Assembly: GCF_009914755.1 (NCBI RefSeq)
Contig: NC_060927.1
Length of the DNA stretch: 64,000 nucleotides
Source of the DNA: the human T2T-CHM13v2.0 reference genome, Homo sapiens
Reading direction: 5' to 3' (one strand)
A program made the translations under genes and the position numbers. This document shows, one piece after another, positions 1,640 to 36,300 of this stretch. Below the pieces are notes generated by a model, which did not search any database, was not told where the DNA came from, and was given only the letters and a program-made list of their open reading frames with translations. Position 1 is the stretch's first letter. Each line of letters starts with the position of its first letter.

Positions 1640-1952
1640 AATTCACCACTTTGAGCTTCAGTTTCTTCTTCGGGGGGGTATGATGAAAGTTATTATAAAC
1701 ACAGAGAGAATCAGCTTTTCTAGAAAGAGTTCATTGATGTATCTGGCCTCTCAAGCAGGCAGAATGTTAGTTAATACTTGCCAACCTGTTGAGGTATCAT
1801 GGACCCTTAAGGTTTCATCCAGTATTCATGGTTTAATCTTTGGGAAACACCATGAAGGACACCTAGCTTCTAAATAAGTCTCCCACTAGGTCCCACATGG
1901 CAACTGGAATTCCCAAATGACTTCCCTTTTGGGTTAAGGGGGGTGGTTCTCA
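1640..1952 (+). repeat. Left copy of ~310-bp direct repeat flanking HERV-H (partner 8097-8397)
   Basis: aattcacca...gggtggttctca aligns end-to-end with 8097-8397; about 10 substitutions plus indels of 2, 13 and 1 bp by eye. Confidence 0.97.
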
Positions 1953-2351
1953 GTGTGAAGAGACCACCAAACAGGCTTTGTGTGAGCAACATGGCTGTTT
2001 ATTTCACCTGGGTGCAGGCAGGCTGAGTTCGAAAAGAGAGTCAGAGAAAGGAGATAAGGGTATAGCCATTTTATAGGATTTGGGTAGATAAAGGAAAATT
2101 ACAGTCAAAGGGGGGTTGTTCTCTGGCGGGCAAAGTGGGGGTCACAAGGTGCTCAGTAGGGGAGCTTTTGAGCCAGGATGAGCCAGGAGAAGGAATTTCA
2201 CAAGACAATGTCATCAGTTAAGGCAGGAACAGGCCATTTTCACTTCTTTTGTGGTGGAATGTCATCAGTTAAGGCAGGAACCAGCCATCTGGGTGTGTAC
2301 CTGCAGGTCACAGGGGATATGATGGCTTAGCTTGGGCTCAGAGGCCTGACA
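1953..2351 (-). mobile_element. HERV-H 3' LTR (LTR7), missing the terminal ~14 bp of U5
   Basis: Matches 7703-8096 but lacks the 5' LTR terminus tttcatgtgagtct (7689-7702); AATAAA on minus strand at 1998-2003; PPT aagaagacaggaa at 2352-2364. Confidence 0.95.
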
Positions 2352-2512
2352 TTCCTGTCTTCTTATGTTAATAAGAAAAATAAAATGAAATAGTGGTAAA
2401 GTGTTGGGATGGTGAAAATTTTTGGGGGTGGTGTGGAGAGATAATGGGCGATGTTTCTCAGGGCTGCTGCAAGCGGTATTAGAGGCAGCGTGGGAACCTA
2501 GAGTGGGAGAGA

Positions 2513-2695
2513 TTAAGCTGAAGGAAGATTTTGTGGTAAGAGGTGATGTCGTGGGGTTGTTAGAAGAAACATTTGTCGTGTAGAATTATTGGAGATGGCC
2601 TGGATACAGTTTTGTATGAATTGAAAAACTAAATGGAATAAGAGAAGGAGAAAAACAGGTATAAAAGGTCTAAGAATTGGGAGGACCCAGGACAT
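2513..2695 (-). pseudogene. HERV-H env remnant (TM anchor/cytoplasmic tail)
   Basis: ORF SWVLPILRPFIPVFLLLLFHLVFQFIQ is hydrophobic and lies just upstream of the 3' LTR, where the env C-terminus is expected. Confidence 0.7.
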
Positions 2696-3327
2696 CTGAT
2701 TAGAGAGTGCCTAAGGAGATTCAGCATAGTCCTGCCAGCAAAGATTATTTATTTACTTCAAGAGTTTACAGTGGCAGTTTGGGGACAGTACCAGGAGATA
2801 TCAGCTGTGATGGCTTGGAGAAACAGTGTAAACCGGCAGTGTAAACAAGAGCAGGGCATGTATGAGTAGTTGAGAACAGTGAATAGGAGTATGACTAGAC
2901 AGAAGATAGTAGGGATGACAAGTTTTTTTGGGGCACAGTCTAAGTTGGTCTGGTGTCTGGAATGAGACTGGGGCCTAATAAAAAGGAGTGTCCATACAGG
3001 AGCTCAAATGGACTGTACCTTGTGGCATTCTGAGGACAGGTCTGACTTCTGAGAAGGGAAAGTGGTAAAAGTATTGTCCAGTCCTTTTTAAGTTGGTGGC
3101 TGAGCTTGGTGAGGTGTGTTTTTAAAAGACCTTTAGTCCGTTCTACTTTTCTTGAAGACGGAGGACCGTAAGGGATATAAAGGTTTCACTGAATACTAAG
3201 AGCCTGAAAAACTGCTTGTCTGATTTGACTAATAAAGGCTGGTCCGTTGTCAGACTGTATAGAGGTGGGAAGGCTAAACTGAGGAATTATGTCTGACAGA
3301 AGGGAAGAAATGACTGCAGTGGCCTTC

Positions 3328-4867
3328 TCAGACCCTGTAGGAAAGGCCTGTACCTATCCAGTGAAAGTATCTACCTAGACTAAGAGGTATTTTAGTTATC
3401 TGACTCGGGGCATGTTGAGTAAAGCTAATTTGCCAGTCCTGGGTGGGGGCAAATCCTCGAGCTTGATGTGTAGGGAAGGGAGGGGGCCTGAATAATCCCT
3501 GAGGAGTAGTAGAATAGCAGATGGAACATTGAGAAGTTATTTCCTTGAGGATAGATTTCCACAATGGAAAGGAAATGAGAGGTTTTAAGAGGCAGGCTAG
3601 TGGCTTGTACTATAGCATAGCCTGCCTTTGCTGGTGAGTGGCGATTAGGCCTGGTGGAACTGCCATCAATAAACCAACTGTGATCAGGGTGAGAAACAGG
3701 GAAGAAGGAAATGTGGGGAAATGGGGTGAACGTCAGGTGGATCAGAGAGATGCAGTCATGAGGGTCAGGTGTGGTATCAGCAATACTGTGGGAGGCTGGA
3801 TTGAAGTCCGGGCCAGGAACAATGGTAATTGTGGGAGACTCAACAAAGAGTGAGTACTGCTGAAGGAGCTGGGGAGCAGAAAGTGTATGTGTCAGGTGTG
3901 AGGAAGAAAATAGATTTTGGAAATTATGAGAGCTGTAGAGAGTGAGTTGAGCATAGTTTGTGATTTTAAGGGCCTCTAAAAGTATTAGGGCGGCAGCAGC
4001 CGCTGCACGGAGACATGATGGCCAGCCTAAAACAGTAAAGTCAAGTTGTTTGAGCAAAAAGGCTACAGGACGTGATCCCGGTCCTTGTGTAAGAATTCTG
4101 ACTGCACGGCCCTTCACTTCGGCTGTGTGTAATGAAAAGGGTTGGGATGAGTCAGGGAGAGCTAGAGTGGGGGCAGTCTCTAAAGCTGTCTTCAAGGAAC
4201 AGAAAGAGGAGTGGGGAAAGGATTTAGGATCTATGGGGTCAGCTAGGTTTCCTTTTGTGAGTTTATATAATGGTTTTGTTAGGATGGCAAAACCAGGTAT
4301 CTAAAGGCGAAAATATCCAACCATGCCCAGGAAGGAAAGGAGTTGTTATTTTGTAGAAGGGGTTGGGGTTTGAGAGATTAGTCCAACACGATCAGCAGGG
4401 AGAGCACGTGTATTTTTATGAAGAATTATGCCAAGGTAGGTAACGGATGGAGAAGAAATTTGAGCTTTGGAGAGGGATACCCGATATCCTTTGGAGAATA
4501 AATGCTGAAGGAGCAGAAGTGTGTCTTGTTGAGAAGATTCAAAGGAGGGGCTACAAAGAAGAAGGTCATCAATATATTGAATAAGGTGAGAAGCGGAGGG
4601 GTAGAAAGAAAGTAAATCATGAGAAAGAGCTTGGCTGAAGTAATGAGGGCTGTCCCTGAAACCTTGCGGCAGCACAGCCCAGGTAAGCTGCTGGGACTGA
4701 TGGGTGTCAGGGTCAGTCCAGGTGAAAGCAAAGAGAGGCTGGGACGAGGGGTGAAGGGGAATAGTGAAAAAAGCATCTTTAAGATCAAGAATGGAATAGT
4801 GAGTTGTGGAGGAAGGTATTGAGGACAAAAGAGTGTACGGGTTGGGCACCGCAGGGTGGATAGGCAA
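3328..4867 (-). pseudogene. HERV-H pol remnants (RT, connection/RNase H, integrase N-terminal part), fragmented
   Basis: 4346-4867: LDLKDAFF, LPQGFRDSP, YIDDLLL; 3425-4195: TAPTLALPD...WFIDGSS; 3328-3564: integrase-like CSIC and QDWQI. Confidence 0.93.
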
Positions 4868-5071
4868 AACAATTTGGGTGATAAGGCGCAGATCCTGAAC
4901 TAACCTGTAAGACTTGTGCGGTTTTAGGACAGGTAAAATGGGGGAATTGTAAGGAGAGTTTATAGGTTTTAGAAGCCCATGCTGTAGCAGGCGAGTGATA
5001 ACAGGCTTTAATCCTTTTAAAGCGTGCTATGGGATGGGATATTGGTGTTGAGCGGGGTAAGGGTGATTAGG

Positions 5072-5875
5072 TTATAATGGGATGGTAATGGGCATGTGAT
5101 CTGTTGCCAGGGAAGGAGTAGAGATGTCCCATACTTGTGGGTTAAGGTGGGGGGATATGAGAGGAAGACGCGAAGGAGGCTTTGGGTTGGGGAGAAGGGC
5201 AGCAGTGAGATGCGGCTGTAGTCCAGGAATAGTCAGGGAAGCAGATAATTTGGTTAAAATATCTCGGCCTAATAAGGGAACTGGGCAGGTGGGGATAACT
5301 GAAAAGGAGTGCTTAAAAGAATATTGTCTAAGTTGGCACCAGAGTTGGGGAGTTTTAACAGGTTTAAAAGCCTGGCCATCAATACCCACAACAGTTATGG
5401 AAGCAAGGGAAACAGGCCTTTGAAAATAAGGTAATGTGGGGTGGGTAGCCTCCGTATTGATTAAGAAGGGGACGGACTTACTTTCCACTGTGAGAGTTAC
5501 CCAGAGTGTCTGTAATGGTCTTGTAGGCTTCGAGGCGATCTGGCAGTGGCAGTCTTCAGCTGCTAAGCCGAGATCTGGGAAGCAGTCAGTCAAAGAGCCT
5601 TGGGCCAGAGTTCCAGGGGCTCTGGGAGTGGCTGCCAGGTGAGTTGAACAGTCCAATTTCCAGTGGGGTCCCGCACAGATGGGACATGGCTTAGGAGGAA
5701 TCCCGGGCTGTGGGCATTCCTTGGCCTGGTGTCCAGATTTCTGGCACTTATAGCAAGCTCCTGGGGAAGGCGGTTCTGGAGGAACACCTGGCCACTGCAG
5801 TTTAGGTGTTTGGAAGTTCTTGTGTGCTGGAGATGTGGCTGGGGTTTGTCTCACAGTGGAGGCAAGGAATTGCAA
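5072..5875 (-). pseudogene. HERV-H gag (NC)-protease remnant
   Basis: CYKCQKSGHQAKEC and CPICAGPHWKLDC knuckles; protease active site degenerate (FLINTEA instead of DTGA); flap-side motif PLLGRDIL. Confidence 0.92.
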
Positions 5876-6889
5876 CTCAGAAATATGTTGCTACTTGGCT
5901 GTCTCTATTATTGTACACCTTGAAGGTGAGGTTAATTAAGCCCTGTTGTGGGGTTTCAGGGCCGGAATTTAATTTTTGGAGTTTTATTTAATGTCAGGAG
6001 CAGATTGGGTAATAAAATGTATATTGAGAATAAGACGGCCTTTTGACCTTTCAGGGTCTAGGGCTGTAAAGCGTCTCAGGGTTGCTGCTGAACAAGCCAT
6101 GAACTGGGCTGGGTTTTTCATATTTGATGAAAGAGCCTAAATGCTCAGGATTTGGGAGAGGTCTGATGAAGAAAAAGGAGCATTAACCTTGACTATGCCT
6201 TTAGCTTCAGCCACCTTTTTAAGAGGAAATTGCTGGGCAGGTGGGGGAGGGCTACTCACGGAATGAAACTGTAAACCGGACCGGGTATGAGGAGGGGAGG
6301 TGATAAAAAGATTATAGGGTGGAGGAGCGGAGGCTGAGGAAGAATTGGGACCTAGCTCGGCCTGGCGAGGAGCAGCCTGGGGAGGAGGGGAGAGGTCAGA
6401 TGGGTCTGTAGAAAAGGAAGATTAGAAAGACTCAGCGACGCTTGGGGTTGGGACTGAGGGGACAGGCGAGAGGGAAAGAAGGAAGATTTGGGATGAGTTT
6501 CACTGGGCACAGAGACTAGGAAGGGACCGATGTGTAAAAGAATGCCTGGACATCAGGCACCTCAGACCGTTTGCCCATTTTAGGACAAGAATTATTTAGA
6601 TCTTGCAGGATGGAAAAATTGAAAGTGCTGTTTTCTGGCTATTTGGAACTACTGTCGAGTTTGTATTGGGGTCAAGTGGCATTGCAGAAGAAAATAAGGC
6701 ATTTAGGTTTTAGGTCAGGTGTGAGTTGAAGAGGTTTTAAGTTTTTGAGAACACAGGCTAAGGGAGAAGAAGGAGGAATGGAAGGTGGAAGGTTGCCCAT
6801 AGTGAAGGAAGCAAGCCCAGAGAAAAGAGAGAGTGGAGACATGGAGGGAAGGGGTTCGGGGGTTCTTACCCTCCAGAAAAGCAGGAAAG

Positions 6890-7085
6890 GGGTCAGGGCG
6901 CAGAGATATGAGGTCGGAGCATGGAAATAAGGGATCAGGAGACAGAGATATAAGAGGGTGGGGAGCGGAAATAAGGGATCAGGGCACAGAGATATAAGAG
7001 GTCGGGCCGCAGAAATAAGGGATCAGGGCGCAGAGATATAAGAGGTCGGGGCACAGAAATAAGGGATCGGGGCACAGAGATATGA
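6890..7085. repeat. 44-bp tandem repeat (about 4.5 copies) in the HERV-H leader
   Basis: aaataagggatc starts at 6925, 6969, 7013 and 7057 (period 44). Confidence 0.9.
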
Positions 7086-7668
7086 GGTTGGGGTACTTGC
7101 CTCTCCACCAGAAAAGCGGGACTTGCCACTAAGGGTGAAGGAGAAGGGATTGGGGGTTTCTTGCCCCCCAGAAAGGCAGAGAAGGGGTAGAGACATGGAG
7201 AGAAGGGGTTGGGGTACTTGCCCCTCCCCTAGAAAAGCGGGACTTGCCGCTAAGGGTGAAGGACCAAGGCAGGCATCCTTGCGTGGTCTGACACCTCTGA
7301 AACGTGGGTGAATAATCAGAGAGGTGTCCCTGCAATGATTAAACACCAAGGGAAGGCTGCCTTCCCAGTCCGTGACCGGCGCCGGAGTTTTGGGTCCACA
7401 GACAAAACGTGTCTCCTTTGTCTCTACCAGAAAATGAAAGGAATTGAAATTAAGAGAAGGGAGAGACTGAAGAGTGGAAAGGAGAAAGTGGTTGAGGGAT
7501 AGTGAGAGAGGTTGGAGAAGAGAGTAAGAAGAGGCCACTTACCTGATTTAAAATTGGTGAGATGTTCCTTGGGCTGGTGGGTCTGAGGACCTGAGGTCGT
7601 AGGTGGATCTTTTTCACGGAGCAAAGAACAGGAGGACAGGGGATTGATCTCCCAAGGGAGGTCCCCCG

Positions 7669-7686
7669 ATCCGAGTCATGGCACCA
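7669..7686 (-). promoter_or_regulatory. tRNA-His primer binding site
   Basis: Minus strand TGGTGCCATGACTCGGAT, complementary to the tRNA-His 3' end with one CpG-type mismatch; adjacent to the 5' LTR. Confidence 0.93.
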
Positions 7687-7688
7687 AA

Positions 7689-8096
7689 TTTCATGTGAGT
7701 CTGTGTGAAGAAATCACCAAACAGGCTTTGTGTGAGCAATAAAGCTTTTAATCACCTGGGTGCAGGCTGGCTGAGTCTGAAAAGAGAGTCAGAGAAGGGA
7801 GATAGGGGTGGGGCCGTTTTATAGGATTTGGGTAGATAAAGGAAAATTACAGTCAAATGGGGGTTCTCTGGCAGGCAGAGTGGGGGTCACAAGGTGCTCA
7901 GTAGGGGAGCTTCTGAGCCAGGATGAGCCAGGAGAAGGAATTTCACAAGACAGTGTCATCAGTTAAGGCAGGAACAGGCCATTTTCACTTCTTCTGTGGT
8001 GGAATGTCATCAGTTAAGGCAGGAACTGGCCATCTGGGTGTGTACGTGCAGGTCACAGGGGATATGATGGCTTAGCTTGGGCTCAGAGGCCTGACA
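7689..8096 (-). mobile_element. HERV-H 5' LTR (LTR7), complete
   Basis: Starts TG at 8096; TATAAAA at 7817-7823; ATTAAA variant at 7747-7752; followed by the PBS. Confidence 0.96.
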
Positions 8097-8397
8097 AATT
8101 CACCATTTTGAGCTTCAGTTTCTTCTTCGGGAGGGTATTATGAAAGTTATTATAAACACAGAGAGAATCAGAGCTTTTCTAGAAAGAGTTCATTGATTTA
8201 TCTGGCAGAATGTTAGTTAATACTTGCCAACCTGTTGAGGTATCATGGACCCTTAAGGTTTCATCCAGTGTTCATGGTTTAATCTTTGGGAAAGATCATG
8301 AAGGACACCTAGCTTCTAAATAAGTCTCCCACTAGGTCCCACATGACAACTATAATTCCCAAATGACTTCCCTTTTGGGTTAAGGGGGTGGTTCTCA
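8097..8397 (+). repeat. Right copy of ~310-bp direct repeat flanking HERV-H
   Basis: Begins at the first base outside the LTR TG terminus; aligns to 1640-1952. Confidence 0.97.
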
Positions 8398-8425
8398 TCC
8401 CTCACTTACATAAGAATTGCCTGGG

Positions 8426-8553
8426 CTACTCGAGAGGCTGAGGCAGGAGAATTGCTTGAACTTGGGAGGCAGAGGTTGCAGGTTGCAGTGAGCCGAGATT
8501 GCACCACTGCACTCCAGCCTGGGCGACAGAGCAAGACTCCATCTCAAAAAAAA
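8426..8553 (+). mobile_element. 5'-truncated Alu (right arm) inserted in a MER5-like element
   Basis: Alu right-arm sequence plus A tail; TSD gaattgcctggg at 8414-8425 and 8555-8566. Confidence 0.9.
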
Positions 8554-9576
8554 TGAATTGCCTGGGAAGAATTTTTTAAATGCCAATGCCCAGGCCTTCC
8601 CTTCAACAAAGGCCATGCTTTAGTATTGTGTACAAATCTCCCAGGTGACCCTATTATATGGCCTGAGCTCAGAACCACTGAGTTTGGTCTTAAGACACTA
8701 ATTGAAAATCCACGGCTGGTAAACCTGTAAGCCGTTTTTCTTAAAATGACCCTTGTTTCAAGAAATGTATCAGTTTAGCCACTCAGTTCCTTGGGAGTGC
8801 ACCACGGGGACATAAATGGGTGATTCTGGACATGCAGATGATGTACAACAGAGAAAACCCTAGAGCACTATAGAAGCACTGTGGCCCTACACCAAGTCTG
8901 AGAAAAGGAAGAGGTAACAGTGATAATAAACTCATTCATCAGCAACGTCACCATCAACTACCATTTACAGAGTCACTAGTAGTTGCCAAGTACTGTATAC
9001 CAAGCATTTCACATTTTATTTTTATACTCATGTGGAGACTGGAGACAGGGTAGGGGTAGTAGGTGTGGAGTAGTGAGACGGTACAACTTTTCTGGAAAAC
9101 AATTTGGCAAGATGGGTTAAGAGCCCACAAAATGTTCATATTCTTTGGCCAAGGAGTTGTCACTTCAAGTGACTGTCCCATGGAAAGGGCCACAAATGCA
9201 GGTGGTGGTTTTGTTCACAAAGATGGCCATCACAGCATGGATTATATTAGTAAGTACTGGGACTAACCTAAATATACAACAAATGAAGGGTGATTACATG
9301 CATATTACTACCTTACACACTGGAGTATAGAATGTGACCATGAAAGATGTTTTCCTCTATGAATAAATTTTATAACAAGGAAAATTTACACAACAAAATA
9401 TTAAGTAAAATAAAGCAAGACATAAAGTAGTATCTACAGTGCAATTCAAAGTTCCAAGAATGGCATATATCTGTAAAACTTGTTACATTACAAAGTTGGT
9501 TGCAGCTGGCAAGACTCCATTTGTATCCATATGGTCTTCAGAAAACACCCTTCAAATGGTTAAAAAGTATATTGCT

Positions 9577-33361: not shown

Positions 33362-36300
33362 TATTTTTATTTTTATAGTTCTTTCAAGAGCATCTCTTTT
33401 CCTTGGATTAGACGAATATAAATATATTTTTATTACGTATAACCACCCACACCCTAAGCTCATTCCCACCCTATTAATCTACAAAATGTAACCTTAAGAG
33501 TGTTTAATTTTCTGCCCTTGAAAATCATGGCCTCTTCAAACGTGGAAAGGACATTAGAGATTATCCAACTTGTGGTTCTCTACCCTGGCTAAGTATTAGA
33601 ATCATCTGGGAAAGTTAACAAAAATACCCCTGCCTGAAACCACCAACATAAATTCTTTTTTAACTGGTCTGGGTAAGTCCTGGGCTTGGGTATTACGTAA
33701 AAGCTCTCCCAGGAGATTCTAATGTGCAGGTGATTCTAATCCCCCAGCTGACTTTAACGTGCAGCCAGGTTTAGGCCCTGGTGAATTTTAAGACAGCCAA
33801 CATATTTTACGATAGAGGAAACCAAGCCCCACTGAAGAGAAGTGATTCTATAACTAGAATGTTAGAGTCTCTGACATGTAAGAAATCACAATTCTTAGAA
33901 ATAGATAAGAAAACACAATCATCATAGTGTTCTTGCCCATCCTTTCTTTTATGTAAAACTTTCTTCTATGAAGATACAGCAGGAAAATGTCTATTTCAAA
34001 ACTCAAACTCAATGACATCAAATCAGAGATATGAATTGTCCTCACTTCTGAGAATCTGACCTCCAGGTTCAAATTATAGTCTATTTTATCTCCATTTTTC
34101 TTTCACCCCTCTCTCCATTTCATCATCAAATCCTGTTAGTACTTTTTGTAAGCTCAATGACAGCAGAGCATGGGTCTATCTTGTTCACTGCTGCAGTCCT
34201 AGCCCTGAGCATCATGTTGGCTCATGGCAAGCACTCTATACGTATATGCAAAATTAAGCAAATGAAGTCAGGTTCTCTTGCATCCATCCACTCCTTCATC
34301 TCAAGACTAAACCCTCAATTCCTCCTGCCTGGGTAACCATTCAAGTCTCTTTGCTAATTTTCTTTGATGATTTCCTAGGGTTTCCCCCACACCAGACATC
34401 AGTCTCTTTCAACTAATATATTTTACATGTTACTTTCAGCCTTCATCATTTCATTCCCCAACATACACATCTCTGTTTCAATTTCTTCCTTACTCTCACT
34501 CCACTCTAATTTTTCAAACTTTTCCTCCAATGTTCCCCATACCCTTCCACTCATGCCATGTACTATAGCTCTATTTCCTCCTGCTCATACCTTTCTGCTT
34601 TGAAGAAGTGGAAAAAACAGGCTGTGGAATCAGACCAATTGCAAGTGGTTCCAATTCCAGCTTTGCTATTTAGTCATTCTGAGTCTCAATTACTTCATTT
34701 ATAAAATGTATCAGTAGAAAATAAGATAATATATTTAAAGCACCTGGTGCTACATCTTGTGCATAGTACTGAACCAACCCTTTATAGTCTCTCTGTCAGC
34801 ACCACACAATCTTGATTACTATAGCCATTTTTCACACCATTTAGAAGAGAAAAGCTTTAATTCTAGAAGTACTTAAGTAGACATTCTGCTATACTAATTT
34901 TATACACAAATAAGCTGTGTCTTCCTTGTTTAAGGTATTTGAGTAAGAACAGTTATAATCAAAGGTCAATTTATCCTGAATTTATTTTAAAGATACCTCC
35001 CTCTTGAGGGCATTACTATATATGACTCAGTATACTGTGAACTTGAGCACCGTGATATATATATTACTGGGTGGAAATGGAGGTAAACTAGTACAGACAT
35101 CTTGGAGGACAATTTGGCAACATCTATTAACATTTAAAAACCCATGAGCATAAAGACTGTACAAAAACTGTACAAAAACTGTAAACTGCCTAAATTTCCA
35201 GCACTAAGTGACCAGGCAAATAACACACAGTAAAACACACAATAAAATAACATGTTACTACTAAAAATGGAAAAATCTATATATACTTACATGGATTATA
35301 TCCAAGACATATCTGCATAGACATACTTGTACACACATAAAATAAAAATACCTTCAGATGAATGCTGGTAATAGTCATTGTCTTTGAGAGAAGAAACGGG
35401 TCAGTAGGCTTCAGGGAAAGGAAGGAATACTTTTCACTGTGTACTCTTTTACAATAGAAACTGATTTTTAAACCACCTATATGCATTATATATGCATATA
35501 TAATATTTAAATTATATATAAAATTTTTGAAATAGGACTTACACATAGAAAGTGAACAAATCATAAGTGTTAAGAACATCTTTTTAATAAAGTTAACATA
35601 CCCACCTACAAAACACTCATATCAAGGAGAAAAGCATTACCAGTATATGTTTACAGGAAAATTCTGGTATTAATTTACCTTTACTACTTCAGTATGTATA
35701 TCAAAACAAACTAAAAAATAACAGTAATATCATAATCACACTGAGTAAAATGAACAATAGTTAGGTTTTAGAATATGTAATGCTTATATTTTTTAATACC
35801 CAGTTCATGTTCAATTATCTTTGCTTATCTCAAAAATATCTATTTGCATTTGGTTTGTTTGGATCATTTTCCAAAAAGTCCCCATATTACATATGGTGAT
35901 TTTTCTCTTAAATCTCTTTTGTTCTATAACTGGCCCACCCTCTTCTGTTAATGCTATTTCTTTGTCATTGGAGAAACTGGTCATTTATCTTGTAGAATCT
36001 CTTACATTCTGGAATGGCTGATTAAATCCTCCTGGTATCATTTAATATGTTCTTTACCCACTGCATCTTTTGTAAACCATCAGTTAGATCTAGAAACTCA
36101 TATGCTTTCTTGAGTTGGTAAATAAAAGTACTCTATGATCCACTACATTTGAGCAAAGCTACATATTTGGGGGAACCGATGCATGGAGAGTCACAAAGAC
36201 CTGAAAAATTCCCAAAGCAAATAAATGTTTAGTTTGCTTAACTGTCCATTTCCCATGTGTTATTTTGTTGTTACTGTACTACTTACTATGTTCACATGGA

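What the first reader, a model, noticed from the sequence alone, without database searches (positions are those of the whole stretch)
1640..8397. HERV-H provirus flanked by a ~310-bp target-site duplication, with a clipped U5 end
Seen: 1640-1952 (313 bp) and 8097-8397 (301 bp) are direct repeats abutting both proviral ends. The TG (U3) end at 8096 is intact, but the 3' LTR lacks its last ~14 bp at 1953. The left copy continues outward from a MIR-like sequence and the right copy continues into a MER5-like sequence, so the empty site held one copy. By-eye divergence is about 10 substitutions/299 bp between the repeats and about 9/280 bp between the LTR U3 regions, so both look the same age. Established: HERV-H normally makes ~5-bp TSDs, and retroviral DNA with one defective end can integrate aberrantly with large host duplications. 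Inference: a germline fossil of one-ended integration completed by host DNA synthesis and repair.
Basis: partly seen in the sequence, partly recalled or inferred. Interest (0 to 1): 0.85.

Follow-up and report, generated by a model that had tools for sequence, protein, structure and literature searches.

The report
HERV-H provirus with 310-bp target duplication
An ancient retrovirus copy in human chromosome 3 is bracketed by a 300-base repeat of host DNA and has one clipped end, the scar expected when only one viral end was inserted properly and the cell patched in the other; such scars are already known for another human retrovirus family.

Summary
Observation confirmed. A 6,144-bp HERV-H provirus (minus strand, 1953-8096) lies between two direct copies of one host segment, 1640-1952 and 8097-8397. 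The copies match at 289 of 299 aligned bases. The CHM13 genome holds this segment nowhere else.

- **Ends:** the U3 tip (TGTCAGG) abuts the right copy exactly. The 3' LTR stops 14 nt short of the family's normal ...CATGAAA tip (11 nt if a 2-nt microhomology was used) and abuts the left copy.
- **Control:** of 15 other HERV-H elements, 13 have a 5-bp duplication (11 perfect). All 15 have full tips. None of the 11 proviruses among them has a long abutting repeat.
- **Reading:** the anatomy matches experimental aberrant integrations, where integrase joins one end and host enzymes join the other, often truncated, with duplications of hundreds of bp. It also matches published HERV-K(HML-2) loci with 61-450-bp duplications, for which this explanation is already in print.
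- **Verdict:** interpretation supported (about 0.8). It is a new member of a known kind; I found no HERV-H case in print.
- **New here:** the LTR clock is compromised. The 3' LTR has exchanged sequence with the 3' LTR of a HERV-H 145 kb upstream, which explains its discordant R region.
- **Not done:** the outgroup test, because no primate genomes are held.

The parts
1640..1952 (+). Left copy of the duplicated host segment A (313 bp). It is continuous leftward with unrelated host DNA, and its right end abuts the clipped U5 end of the 3' LTR.
   Evidence: 289/299 identical to the right copy; only two copies in the genome.
1953..2351 (-). 3' LTR, 399 nt. It starts TGTCAGG at 2351 and stops at ...CTTCACAC at 1953. 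It lacks the last 14 nt of U5 (11 if a GA microhomology was used).
   Evidence: Normal tip ...CATGAAA in 27/28 and 11/11 other LTRs.
1984..2007 (-). R-region stretch of the 3' LTR that carries the 'type II' haplotype. It is discordant with the 5' LTR at 7 alignment columns (LTR positions 344-357).
   Evidence: 11 of 11 other provirus pairs are concordant in type.
2352..7688 (-). Internal proviral region. It has a polypurine tract next to the 3' LTR (2352-2366), broken gag-pro-pol remnants, and a primer-binding site at 7669-7686 two bases from the 5' LTR.
   Evidence: Pfam on 6 of 26 stop-to-stop ORFs found zf-CCHC + RVP (5072-5890), RVT_1 (4346-5026) and RT_RNaseH_2, the last below its cut-off (3425-4300); 3 ORFs had no hit.
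7689..8096 (-). 5' LTR, complete (408 nt), TGTCAGG...CATGAAA. Its U3 tip at 8096 abuts host DNA exactly.
8097..8397 (+). Right copy of host segment A (301 bp). Its left end abuts the intact U3 tip, and it is continuous rightward with unrelated host DNA.

Best explanation
This is a germline fossil of an aberrant, one-ended retroviral integration.

Proposed sequence of events:
1. Integrase joined the processed U3 end of a HERV-H DNA to the window's + strand, between what are now positions 1639 and 1640 of the empty site.
2. The U5 end was not joined by integrase.
3. The free host 3' end at the nick was extended across about 313 nt of host DNA.
4. The U5 end, trimmed by 14 nt (or 11), was joined by host end-joining, with 0-2 nt of microhomology, to the other strand 313 bp away.
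5. Fill-in then gave a 313-bp target-site duplication in place of the usual 5 bp.

Shown:
- the two exact abutments;
- the clipped U5 end;
- the uniqueness of the duplicated segment;
- the absence of a 5-bp duplication;
- the normal behaviour of other HERV-H copies.

Inferred:
- the order of strand events;
- that the clipping happened at insertion.

Later, the 3' LTR exchanged sequence by non-allelic gene conversion with the 3' LTR of a HERV-H provirus 145 kb upstream.
For: - **Geometry.** Homology between the flanks starts at the base next to the U3 tip and ends at the base next to the truncated U5. The segment occurs only twice in the genome, both times here.
- **Family norm.** Of 15 other HERV-H elements (4 solo LTRs, 11 proviruses), 11 have a perfect 5-bp duplication, 2 have one mismatch, 1 is degenerate and 1 has none. 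All 15 have complete ...CATGAAA tips. 0 of the 11 proviruses has an abutting long flank repeat.
- **The U3 junction is of the integrase type.** TG sits directly on host DNA. The two extra bases that an unprocessed end would carry (AA in proviral sense, read from the base pair before the 3' LTR) are absent.
- **Age.** The flank repeat differs at 10/299. LTR positions 1-281 differ at 9/280 (Fisher p = 1.0). The unconverted middle of the LTR differs at 10/175 (p = 0.24).
[quoted passage not shown] The same paper describes ASLV vectors with one bad end (passages).
- **Germline HML-2 precedents** are.
Against: - No outgroup or pre-integration allele could be examined, so a single-copy empty site is inferred, not seen.
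- The wild-type rate of such events is low: 0 of 99 and 0 of 85 proviruses in unperturbed HIV-1 vector infections (PMC5041404, section 10).
- The LTR clock used for the 'same age' argument is disturbed by gene conversion.
- The 3' LTR shows signs of recombinational activity, so a DNA break at this LTR after integration cannot be ruled out from the sequence alone.
- The sample of other HERV-H elements is small (15) and was chosen by similarity to this element's LTRs.
Confidence: 0.8

Rival explanations
1. Normal integration with a 5-bp duplication (AATTC on the + strand), followed later by a replication or repair accident at the U5/host junction. The nascent or broken host end, ending in the 5-bp duplication, re-primed on the second copy of those 5 bp at the other side of the provirus. 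It copied about 308 nt of host DNA, then switched back 14 nt inside U5. This would be a template-switch or microhomology-mediated repair event.
For: - It yields exactly the observed sequence, so the sequence cannot tell it from one-ended integration (reasoning).
- The 5-bp duplication would supply the priming microhomology.
- The same LTR shows recombinational exchange with a neighbouring LTR, so it has been a substrate for repair.
Against: - It needs two switches whose end points coincide with the two ends of the provirus, one to the base and the other within 14 nt. By my rough estimate from established rates (not a tool result), this is orders of magnitude rarer than an aberrant integration among the >2,000 HERV-H LTR loci (2,305 first-look candidates).
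- The duplication is not detectably younger than the integration.
- The exchanged LTR tracts look younger than the duplication: 2/221 against 10/299, p = 0.08. This argues weakly against one common event.
Confidence: 0.07
2. Non-concerted integration. Integrase joined both ends, but independently and 313 bp apart. The 14 nt of U5 were lost in a later deletion.
For: - Long duplications flank HML-2 solo LTRs (PMC5488345, Table 2). I did not check whether their tips are intact.
- The polarity of the duplication fits.
Against: A later deletion would have had to begin exactly at the LTR/host boundary. The left copy of A runs to the very base at which the right copy ends. The coincidence is not needed if the end was trimmed before joining.
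Confidence: 0.06
3. A tandem duplication of segment A existed before the virus arrived. The provirus landed at the junction of the two copies (the 'pseudo-TSD' model discussed for HML-2), and a small deletion followed.
For: The model is raised in print for long HML-2 repeats (PMC5488345, section 13).
Against: - It requires insertion at the junction to the base, loss of the 5-bp duplication and loss of 14 nt of U5 without loss of any A sequence.
- No other copy of A exists in the genome.
- The two copies are no more diverged than the LTRs, so the duplication would have had to arise just before the insertion.
Confidence: 0.02

Closest known systems
Experimental aberrant integrations: ASLV/RCAS vectors with a mutated end, and HIV-1 vectors with sub-optimal integrase inhibitor or weakened integrase (PMC5041404: passages and section 10 read. 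Oh et al. 2006 is known to me only through citations in PMC5041404 and PMC4422153; the paper itself is not held)
   Same: One end and its host junction are normal. The other end is often truncated and joined by host enzymes. The flanking host DNA is duplicated over hundreds to thousands of bp instead of 4-6 bp.
   Different: Those are somatic events in cultured cells, produced by crippling one end or the enzyme. This is a fixed germline event about 8-17 Myr old (with assumed rates), in a family whose normal copies integrate cleanly. What made the U5 end fail here is unknown.
HERV-K(HML-2) loci with long target-site duplications: 7p21.2 (250 bp), 6p25.2 (111 bp, truncated provirus), 21q21.1 (450 bp, 3'-truncated provirus), 4q32.1 (206 bp), 4p15.32 (96 bp), 16q23.1 (61 bp) (PMC5488345 sections 11-13; PMC4422153 passages)
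   Same: A germline endogenous retrovirus is flanked by direct host repeats of 10^2 bp. At least two of these are proviruses truncated at one end. PMC4422153 attributes them to 'inefficient integration' and cites the RSV U5-mutant work.
   Different: This is a different genus-level group: a gamma-like HERV-H rather than a beta-like HML-2. It is older, and it is full length apart from a 14-nt clip, so both junctions can be read to the base. My four searches found no HERV-H case in print.
Ordinary HERV-H integration
   Same: LTR sequence 91-96% like other copies. Polypurine tract, primer-binding site and gag-pro-pol order as in other copies. Length 6.1 kb, against 5.6-6.1 kb for the five other proviruses measured.
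   Different: No 5-bp duplication, and the U5 tip is missing.
Non-allelic gene conversion between LTRs of different proviruses (recalled from the HERV-K literature; no paper read here)
   Same: The identity between our 3' LTR and the 3' LTR of the provirus 145 kb upstream is mosaic: 0/124, 13/177 and 2/97 differences in the three thirds. The neighbour is the sole sharer of three rare states.
   Different: This is a side feature of the locus, not the cause of the duplication.

Membership tests
HERV-H provirus (the labels 'HERV-H' and 'LTR7 group' are recalled names) | LTRs that begin TGTCAGG and end ...CATGAAA, like the many other genomic copies | tested here: met
   The 5' LTR is complete. The U3 part is 95-96% identical to the 39 other scored copies that match at that level (2,305 first-look candidates, 40 scored). 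The 3' LTR meets the start but not the end.
HERV-H provirus | Primer-binding site two bases after the 5' LTR and polypurine tract before the 3' LTR, as in other copies | tested here: met
   TTTGGTGCC... follows the 5' LTR as in 10 other 5' LTRs. ATAAGAAGACAGGAA precedes the 3' LTR as in other 3' LTRs. The assignment to tRNA-His is recalled, not tested.
HERV-H provirus | Retroviral gag-pro-pol domains in order on the LTR strand | tested here: met
   zf-CCHC and RVP, RVT_1, and an RNase H-like domain (26.7 bits, below the 29.8 cut-off) on the minus strand. 6 of 26 ORFs were scanned and 3 had hits. Integrase and env were not looked for beyond these ORFs.
Concerted integrase-mediated integration | 5-bp target-site duplication directly abutting both tips | tested here: not met
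   Host bases next to the U3 tip are AATTC (+ strand). The bases next to the other end belong to the far end of segment A. Norm: 13 of 15 other elements have a 5-bp duplication with at most one mismatch.
Concerted integrase-mediated integration | Both LTR tips intact | tested here: not met
   The U5 tip lacks 14 (or 11) nt.
Aberrant one-ended integration completed by host enzymes | One viral end and its host junction normal | tested here: met
   TG of U3 sits directly on host DNA, with no unprocessed extra bases.
Aberrant one-ended integration completed by host enzymes | Other end abnormal (often truncated), joined with little or no homology | tested here: met
   The junction reads CACAC|TGAGAACC. 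Compared with the normal LTR and the uninterrupted host copy, there is 0 nt of shared sequence, or 2 nt if one base changed later.
Aberrant one-ended integration completed by host enzymes | Direct duplication of unique flanking host DNA, hundreds of bp long, bounded by the two viral ends | tested here: met
   313/301 bp; 2 copies in the genome.
Aberrant one-ended integration completed by host enzymes | Pre-integration site holds one copy of the duplicated segment | not testable with these tools
   No primate genomes or human haplotypes are held (one search states that the assembly has no relatives here).
Aberrant one-ended integration completed by host enzymes | Duplication formed at the time of integration | tested here: inconclusive
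   10/299 against 9/280 (p = 1.0) and against 10/175 in the unconverted LTR middle (p = 0.24). This is compatible with equal age, but the intervals are wide (1.6-6.1%) and the LTR clock is disturbed.
L1-mediated retroposition of a HERV-H transcript | Copy starts at R, ends in a poly(A) tail, lacks the 5' U3 | tested here: not met
   A full U3 is present at the 5' end, and there is no A-run at the 3' end.

The most novel reading that the evidence does not exclude
The locus is one visible member of a class. In every complete copy I read, the HERV-H U5 tip ends in AA where retroviruses canonically have CA (the CA rule is recalled). If that makes U5 the weaker integrase substrate, HERV-H would be prone to U3-anchored one-ended integration. 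A measurable share of its >2,000 insertions would then carry a clipped U5 tip plus a 10^2-10^3-bp host duplication. Such long flanking repeats can later recombine and remove the provirus cleanly, producing a false 'empty site'.

A bolder variant: the mosaic 3' LTR is itself a scar of the host-mediated completion, which used the neighbouring provirus as a template.
Probability: 0.12. Interest if true: 0.6.

Novelty: new member of a known kind. Interest (0 to 1): 0.4.

Why it matters
- **A clean natural example.** Both junctions can be read to the base. This shows that the aberrant one-ended integration pathway, defined in cell culture with crippled viruses or drugs, also operated in the primate germ line for HERV-H, a family other than HML-2.
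- **Provirus loss by recombination.** A 300-bp direct repeat at 96.7% identity around a 6-kb provirus is a substrate for recombination that would delete the provirus and leave a site indistinguishable from the pre-integration allele. This bears on the use of ERV presence/absence as homoplasy-free phylogenetic markers. PMC5488345 (section 13) raises the same issue for HML-2.
- **LTR dating.** Here LTR-LTR divergence is a poor clock, because the 3' LTR is closer to a neighbour's LTR (15/398) than to its own partner (25/394).

Tried and rejected
- **Repeat labels.** Own-genome searches across the X|A and A|B boundaries found only the two local copies. nhmmer within the window gave only a weak hit of the right outer flank (8554-8800) to 33569-33718 on the minus strand (E = 1.3e-4). 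'MIR-like' and 'MER5-like' therefore stay untested. By my recollection of the MIR core, the stretch across 1639/1640 does look MIR-like; if so, the left junction would be ancestral. That is recall, not a result.
- **Wider sample of proviruses.** Five regions were obtained. No genome-wide screen was possible.
- **Which R-region type is native to this provirus.** No U3 column separates type I from type II within the group of LTRs most like ours. The 5' LTR shares a rare base plus type I with one LTR on another chromosome (L031). The direction of conversion in the R region is therefore undecided.
- **Exact donor.** No LTR is 100% identical to the last 88 nt of the 3' LTR. Twelve loci are listed at 155 bits / 99%, eleven of them other LTRs. 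The last 88 nt of the 5' LTR have no match above 95%, but that stretch includes the CpG-rich tip, so the two figures are not comparable.
- **Unequal crossover between two proviruses:** rejected, because both flanks are the same host segment and it has only two copies.
- **DNA-level copy of the neighbouring provirus:** rejected. The two differ by 6.7% overall, and their 5' LTRs differ at 29/394.
- **Strand-biased C-to-T changes and the clustered CCC-to-TAT change in the 3' LTR as a repair or deaminase scar:** considered, but there are too few sites (8 rare-state columns) and no formal test was made.
- **Papers.** Oh et al. 2006 is not held. The supplements of PMC5041404 and PMC5488345, which list the individual aberrant junctions and the HML-2 repeats, were not opened.


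Full report
**What is there**

The window holds a HERV-H provirus on the minus strand, from 1953 to 8096 (6,144 bp).
- The 5' LTR is 7689-8096 (408 nt). It begins TGTCAGG at 8096 and ends ...CATGAAA at 7689.
- Two bases further on lies the primer-binding site (7669-7686).
- The 3' LTR is 1953-2351. It is preceded by the same polypurine stretch as in other copies.
- The internal part carries broken gag-pro-pol remnants on the minus strand. Of 26 stop-to-stop ORFs of 70 aa or more, I scanned 6. Three gave Pfam hits: zinc knuckle plus retroviral protease, reverse transcriptase, and an RNase H-like domain just under its cut-off.
- The names HERV-H, LTR7 and tRNA-His are recalled labels.

**The flanking repeat**

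- The repeat finder reports the flanks in pieces.
- A gapped alignment with extra context shows one continuous homology, 1640-1952 against 8097-8397. It starts at the base next to the U3 tip and stops at the base next to the 3' LTR.
- It has 289 matches in 299 aligned pairs, 10 substitutions (6 transitions, none at CpG) and three indel events of 2, 13 and 1 bp.
- A search of the whole CHM13 assembly finds this segment only at these two places. It is unique host DNA, not a dispersed repeat and not an older LTR.
- Left of 1640 and right of 8397 the sequences are unrelated to each other and to the provirus. The simplest empty site is therefore X-A-B with one copy of A.

**What normal HERV-H ends look like**

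I took other copies from the same genome: 29 loci most like our U3 (2,305 first-look candidates, 40 scored), 11 most like the end of our 3' LTR, and five 10-kb regions.
- 27 of 28 other LTRs, and 11 of 11, end ...CATGAAA. The exception (L022) is an LTR fused to a second LTR.
- Four solo LTRs and eleven proviruses could be scored for target-site duplications. Eleven have a perfect 5-bp duplication, two have one mismatch, one is degenerate and one has none.
- None of the eleven proviruses has a long repeat abutting its ends.
- Our 3' LTR reads ...CTTCACAC and then host DNA, where the others read ...CTTCACAC GGACGCGCATGAAA or close variants. So 14 nt are missing.
- Comparing the junction (CACAC|TGAGAACC) with the normal LTR and with the uninterrupted host copy gives no shared bases. 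If one base changed later, there would be a 2-nt GA overlap and 11 nt missing.
- The U3 junction is exact. The two bases that an unprocessed viral end would carry are absent.

**Mechanism**

The strand whose 3' end lies at the U3 tip is the window's + strand (...CCTGACA-3'). It is joined to the first base of the right copy of A. That is what integrase strand transfer does.
- To reach the present structure, the host 3' end left at the nick must be extended across A.
- The other strand must be opened at the A|B boundary and joined to the trimmed U5 end.
- The result has the polarity of a normal target-site duplication with the stagger enlarged from 5 to 313 bp. This part is inference from established integration chemistry.

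It matches the experimental class described by Varadarajan et al. Aberrant proviruses have one normal end. The aberrant end is often truncated. Most commonly the host DNA is duplicated, with repeats of hundreds or thousands of bp. The second end is thought to be inserted by host enzymes (PMC5041404, passages and section 10). In unperturbed infections the same authors saw 0 of 99 and 0 of 85 aberrant proviruses, so the event is rare per integration. With more than 2,000 HERV-H LTR loci in the genome, a few such fossils are to be expected.

**Age**

- The flank copies differ by 3.3% (K2P 0.034). LTR positions 1-281 differ by 3.2% (9/280; Fisher p = 1.0).
- With assumed rates of 1.0-2.2 x 10^-9 per site per year, the duplication is about 8-17 Myr old.
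- The last 113 nt of the LTR pair differ by 12.4% (14/113; p = 0.0013 against the first part).

**Why the LTRs disagree**

The excess sits in the R region. The 5' LTR carries one family-wide haplotype (type I) and the 3' LTR another (type II), differing at seven alignment columns. Both LTRs of a provirus are copied from one template, so they should agree. In 11 of 11 other provirus pairs the type does agree; four of these pairs differ only by single bases.

The explanation is a neighbour. A 6,088-bp HERV-H provirus lies 145 kb upstream on the same strand (C3:173,456,492-173,462,579; L045).
- Its 3' LTR differs from our 3' LTR at 0 of 124 positions in the first third, 13 of 177 in the middle and 2 of 97 in the last third (outer thirds against middle: p = 0.0009).
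- Among 38 other LTRs it is the only one that shares three rare bases of our 3' LTR (positions 51, 304, 320), and one of two that share a fourth (position 69).
- Overall, our 3' LTR is closer to it (15/398) than to its own 5' LTR (25/394).
- The two proviruses as wholes differ by 6.7% and their 5' LTRs at 29/394, so this is patchy non-allelic gene conversion between the two 3' LTRs, not a DNA-level copy.
- The direction in the R region is undecided.
- The exchanged tracts look younger than the flank duplication (2/221 against 10/299, p = 0.08).
- In the unconverted middle, the LTR pair differs at 10/175. That is not significantly different from the flank repeat (p = 0.24; p = 0.47 if a clustered triple change counts as one event).

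**Rivals**

- *Later template-switch repair at a normally integrated provirus.* This would give the identical sequence, with the 5-bp duplication serving as primer. I rate it low because both switch points must coincide with the proviral ends, and because the duplication is not younger than the LTRs.
- *Independent integrase joining of both ends, followed by a deletion.* The deletion would have to start exactly at the boundary.
- *A pre-existing tandem duplication.* The insertion would have to hit the junction to the base, and further losses would be needed.
- *L1-mediated retroposition.* Excluded by the full 5' U3 and the lack of a poly(A) tail.
- *Crossover between two proviruses.* Excluded because both flanks are the same segment.

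**Comparison with what is known**

- Long direct repeats around germline HERV-K(HML-2) elements are documented: 61-450 bp, including a truncated provirus at 6p25.2 and a 3'-truncated provirus at 21q21.1 (PMC5488345, sections 11-13).
- Macfarlane and Badge attribute such repeats to 'inefficient integration' and point to the RSV vectors with a mutated U5 (PMC4422153, passages).
- Four full-text searches found no HERV-H example and no mention of this locus.
- The finding is therefore a new member of a known kind. It is a clean, base-resolved HERV-H instance, plus a documented case of LTR exchange between neighbouring proviruses that spoils the LTR clock.

**What remains open**

- No outgroup or human haplotype could be examined.
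- No genome-wide screen could be run.
- The repeat-family labels of the outer flanks could not be checked.
- Supplementary tables of the two key papers were not opened.

Noticed in passing
window 1953-2351, and the provirus at window -143508..-137421 (L045; its 3' LTR is L042): Patchy non-allelic gene conversion between the 3' LTRs of two HERV-H proviruses 145 kb apart on the same strand. Differences are 0/124, 13/177 and 2/97 in the three thirds, and three rare bases are shared by these two LTRs alone among 38 others.
   Followed up: yes
window 2062-2064: Three adjacent bases of the 3' LTR (CCC to TAT in proviral sense, just after the TATAAAA motif) differ from the 5' LTR and from nearly all of the 38 other LTRs. 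At most one other LTR shares any of the three. This is one complex mutation of unknown cause.
   Followed up: partly
window 8426-8553, with 8414-8425 and 8555-8566: A 5'-truncated Alu-like insert (right arm plus A-run; the label is recalled) flanked by a 12-bp direct repeat GAATTGCCTGGG. It lies 17 bp to the right of the duplicated segment. It is present only beside the right copy, as expected, since it lies outside segment A.
   Followed up: partly
window 6902-7121 and 7061-7263: Inside the provirus, near its 5' part, there are four tandem units of 44 bp, read as overlapping 88-nt copies (60-82% identity), and a 121-bp-spaced repeat pair (84% identity) (families D2 and D9).
   Followed up: no
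other HERV-H copies: L004-L032, L034-L049: All complete HERV-H U5 tips read here end ...GAAA, with the 5-bp host duplication starting right after. The processed U5 end is therefore AA where retroviruses canonically have CA (the CA rule is recalled). This may be relevant to which end fails in one-ended integration.
   Followed up: partly
L022 (G000:C23:136580501-136580780 and the match 23 bp further down, at 136580205-136580478): An LTR broken off after about 300 nt and fused directly to the start of a second LTR: a tandem or rearranged LTR.
   Followed up: no
L046 (G000:C1:76731908-76741907): A HERV-H provirus with complete tips but no matching 5-bp duplication (GATAA against TTGTG). Its 3' flank begins with a primer-binding-site-like TTGTGGTG. 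This is possibly a recombinant between two proviruses.
   Followed up: no
window 1928-2505 (hub annotation): The RefSeq 'enhancer' feature spans the aberrant junction, the whole 3' LTR and the start of the internal region. In other words, it is essentially the clipped LTR.
   Followed up: no
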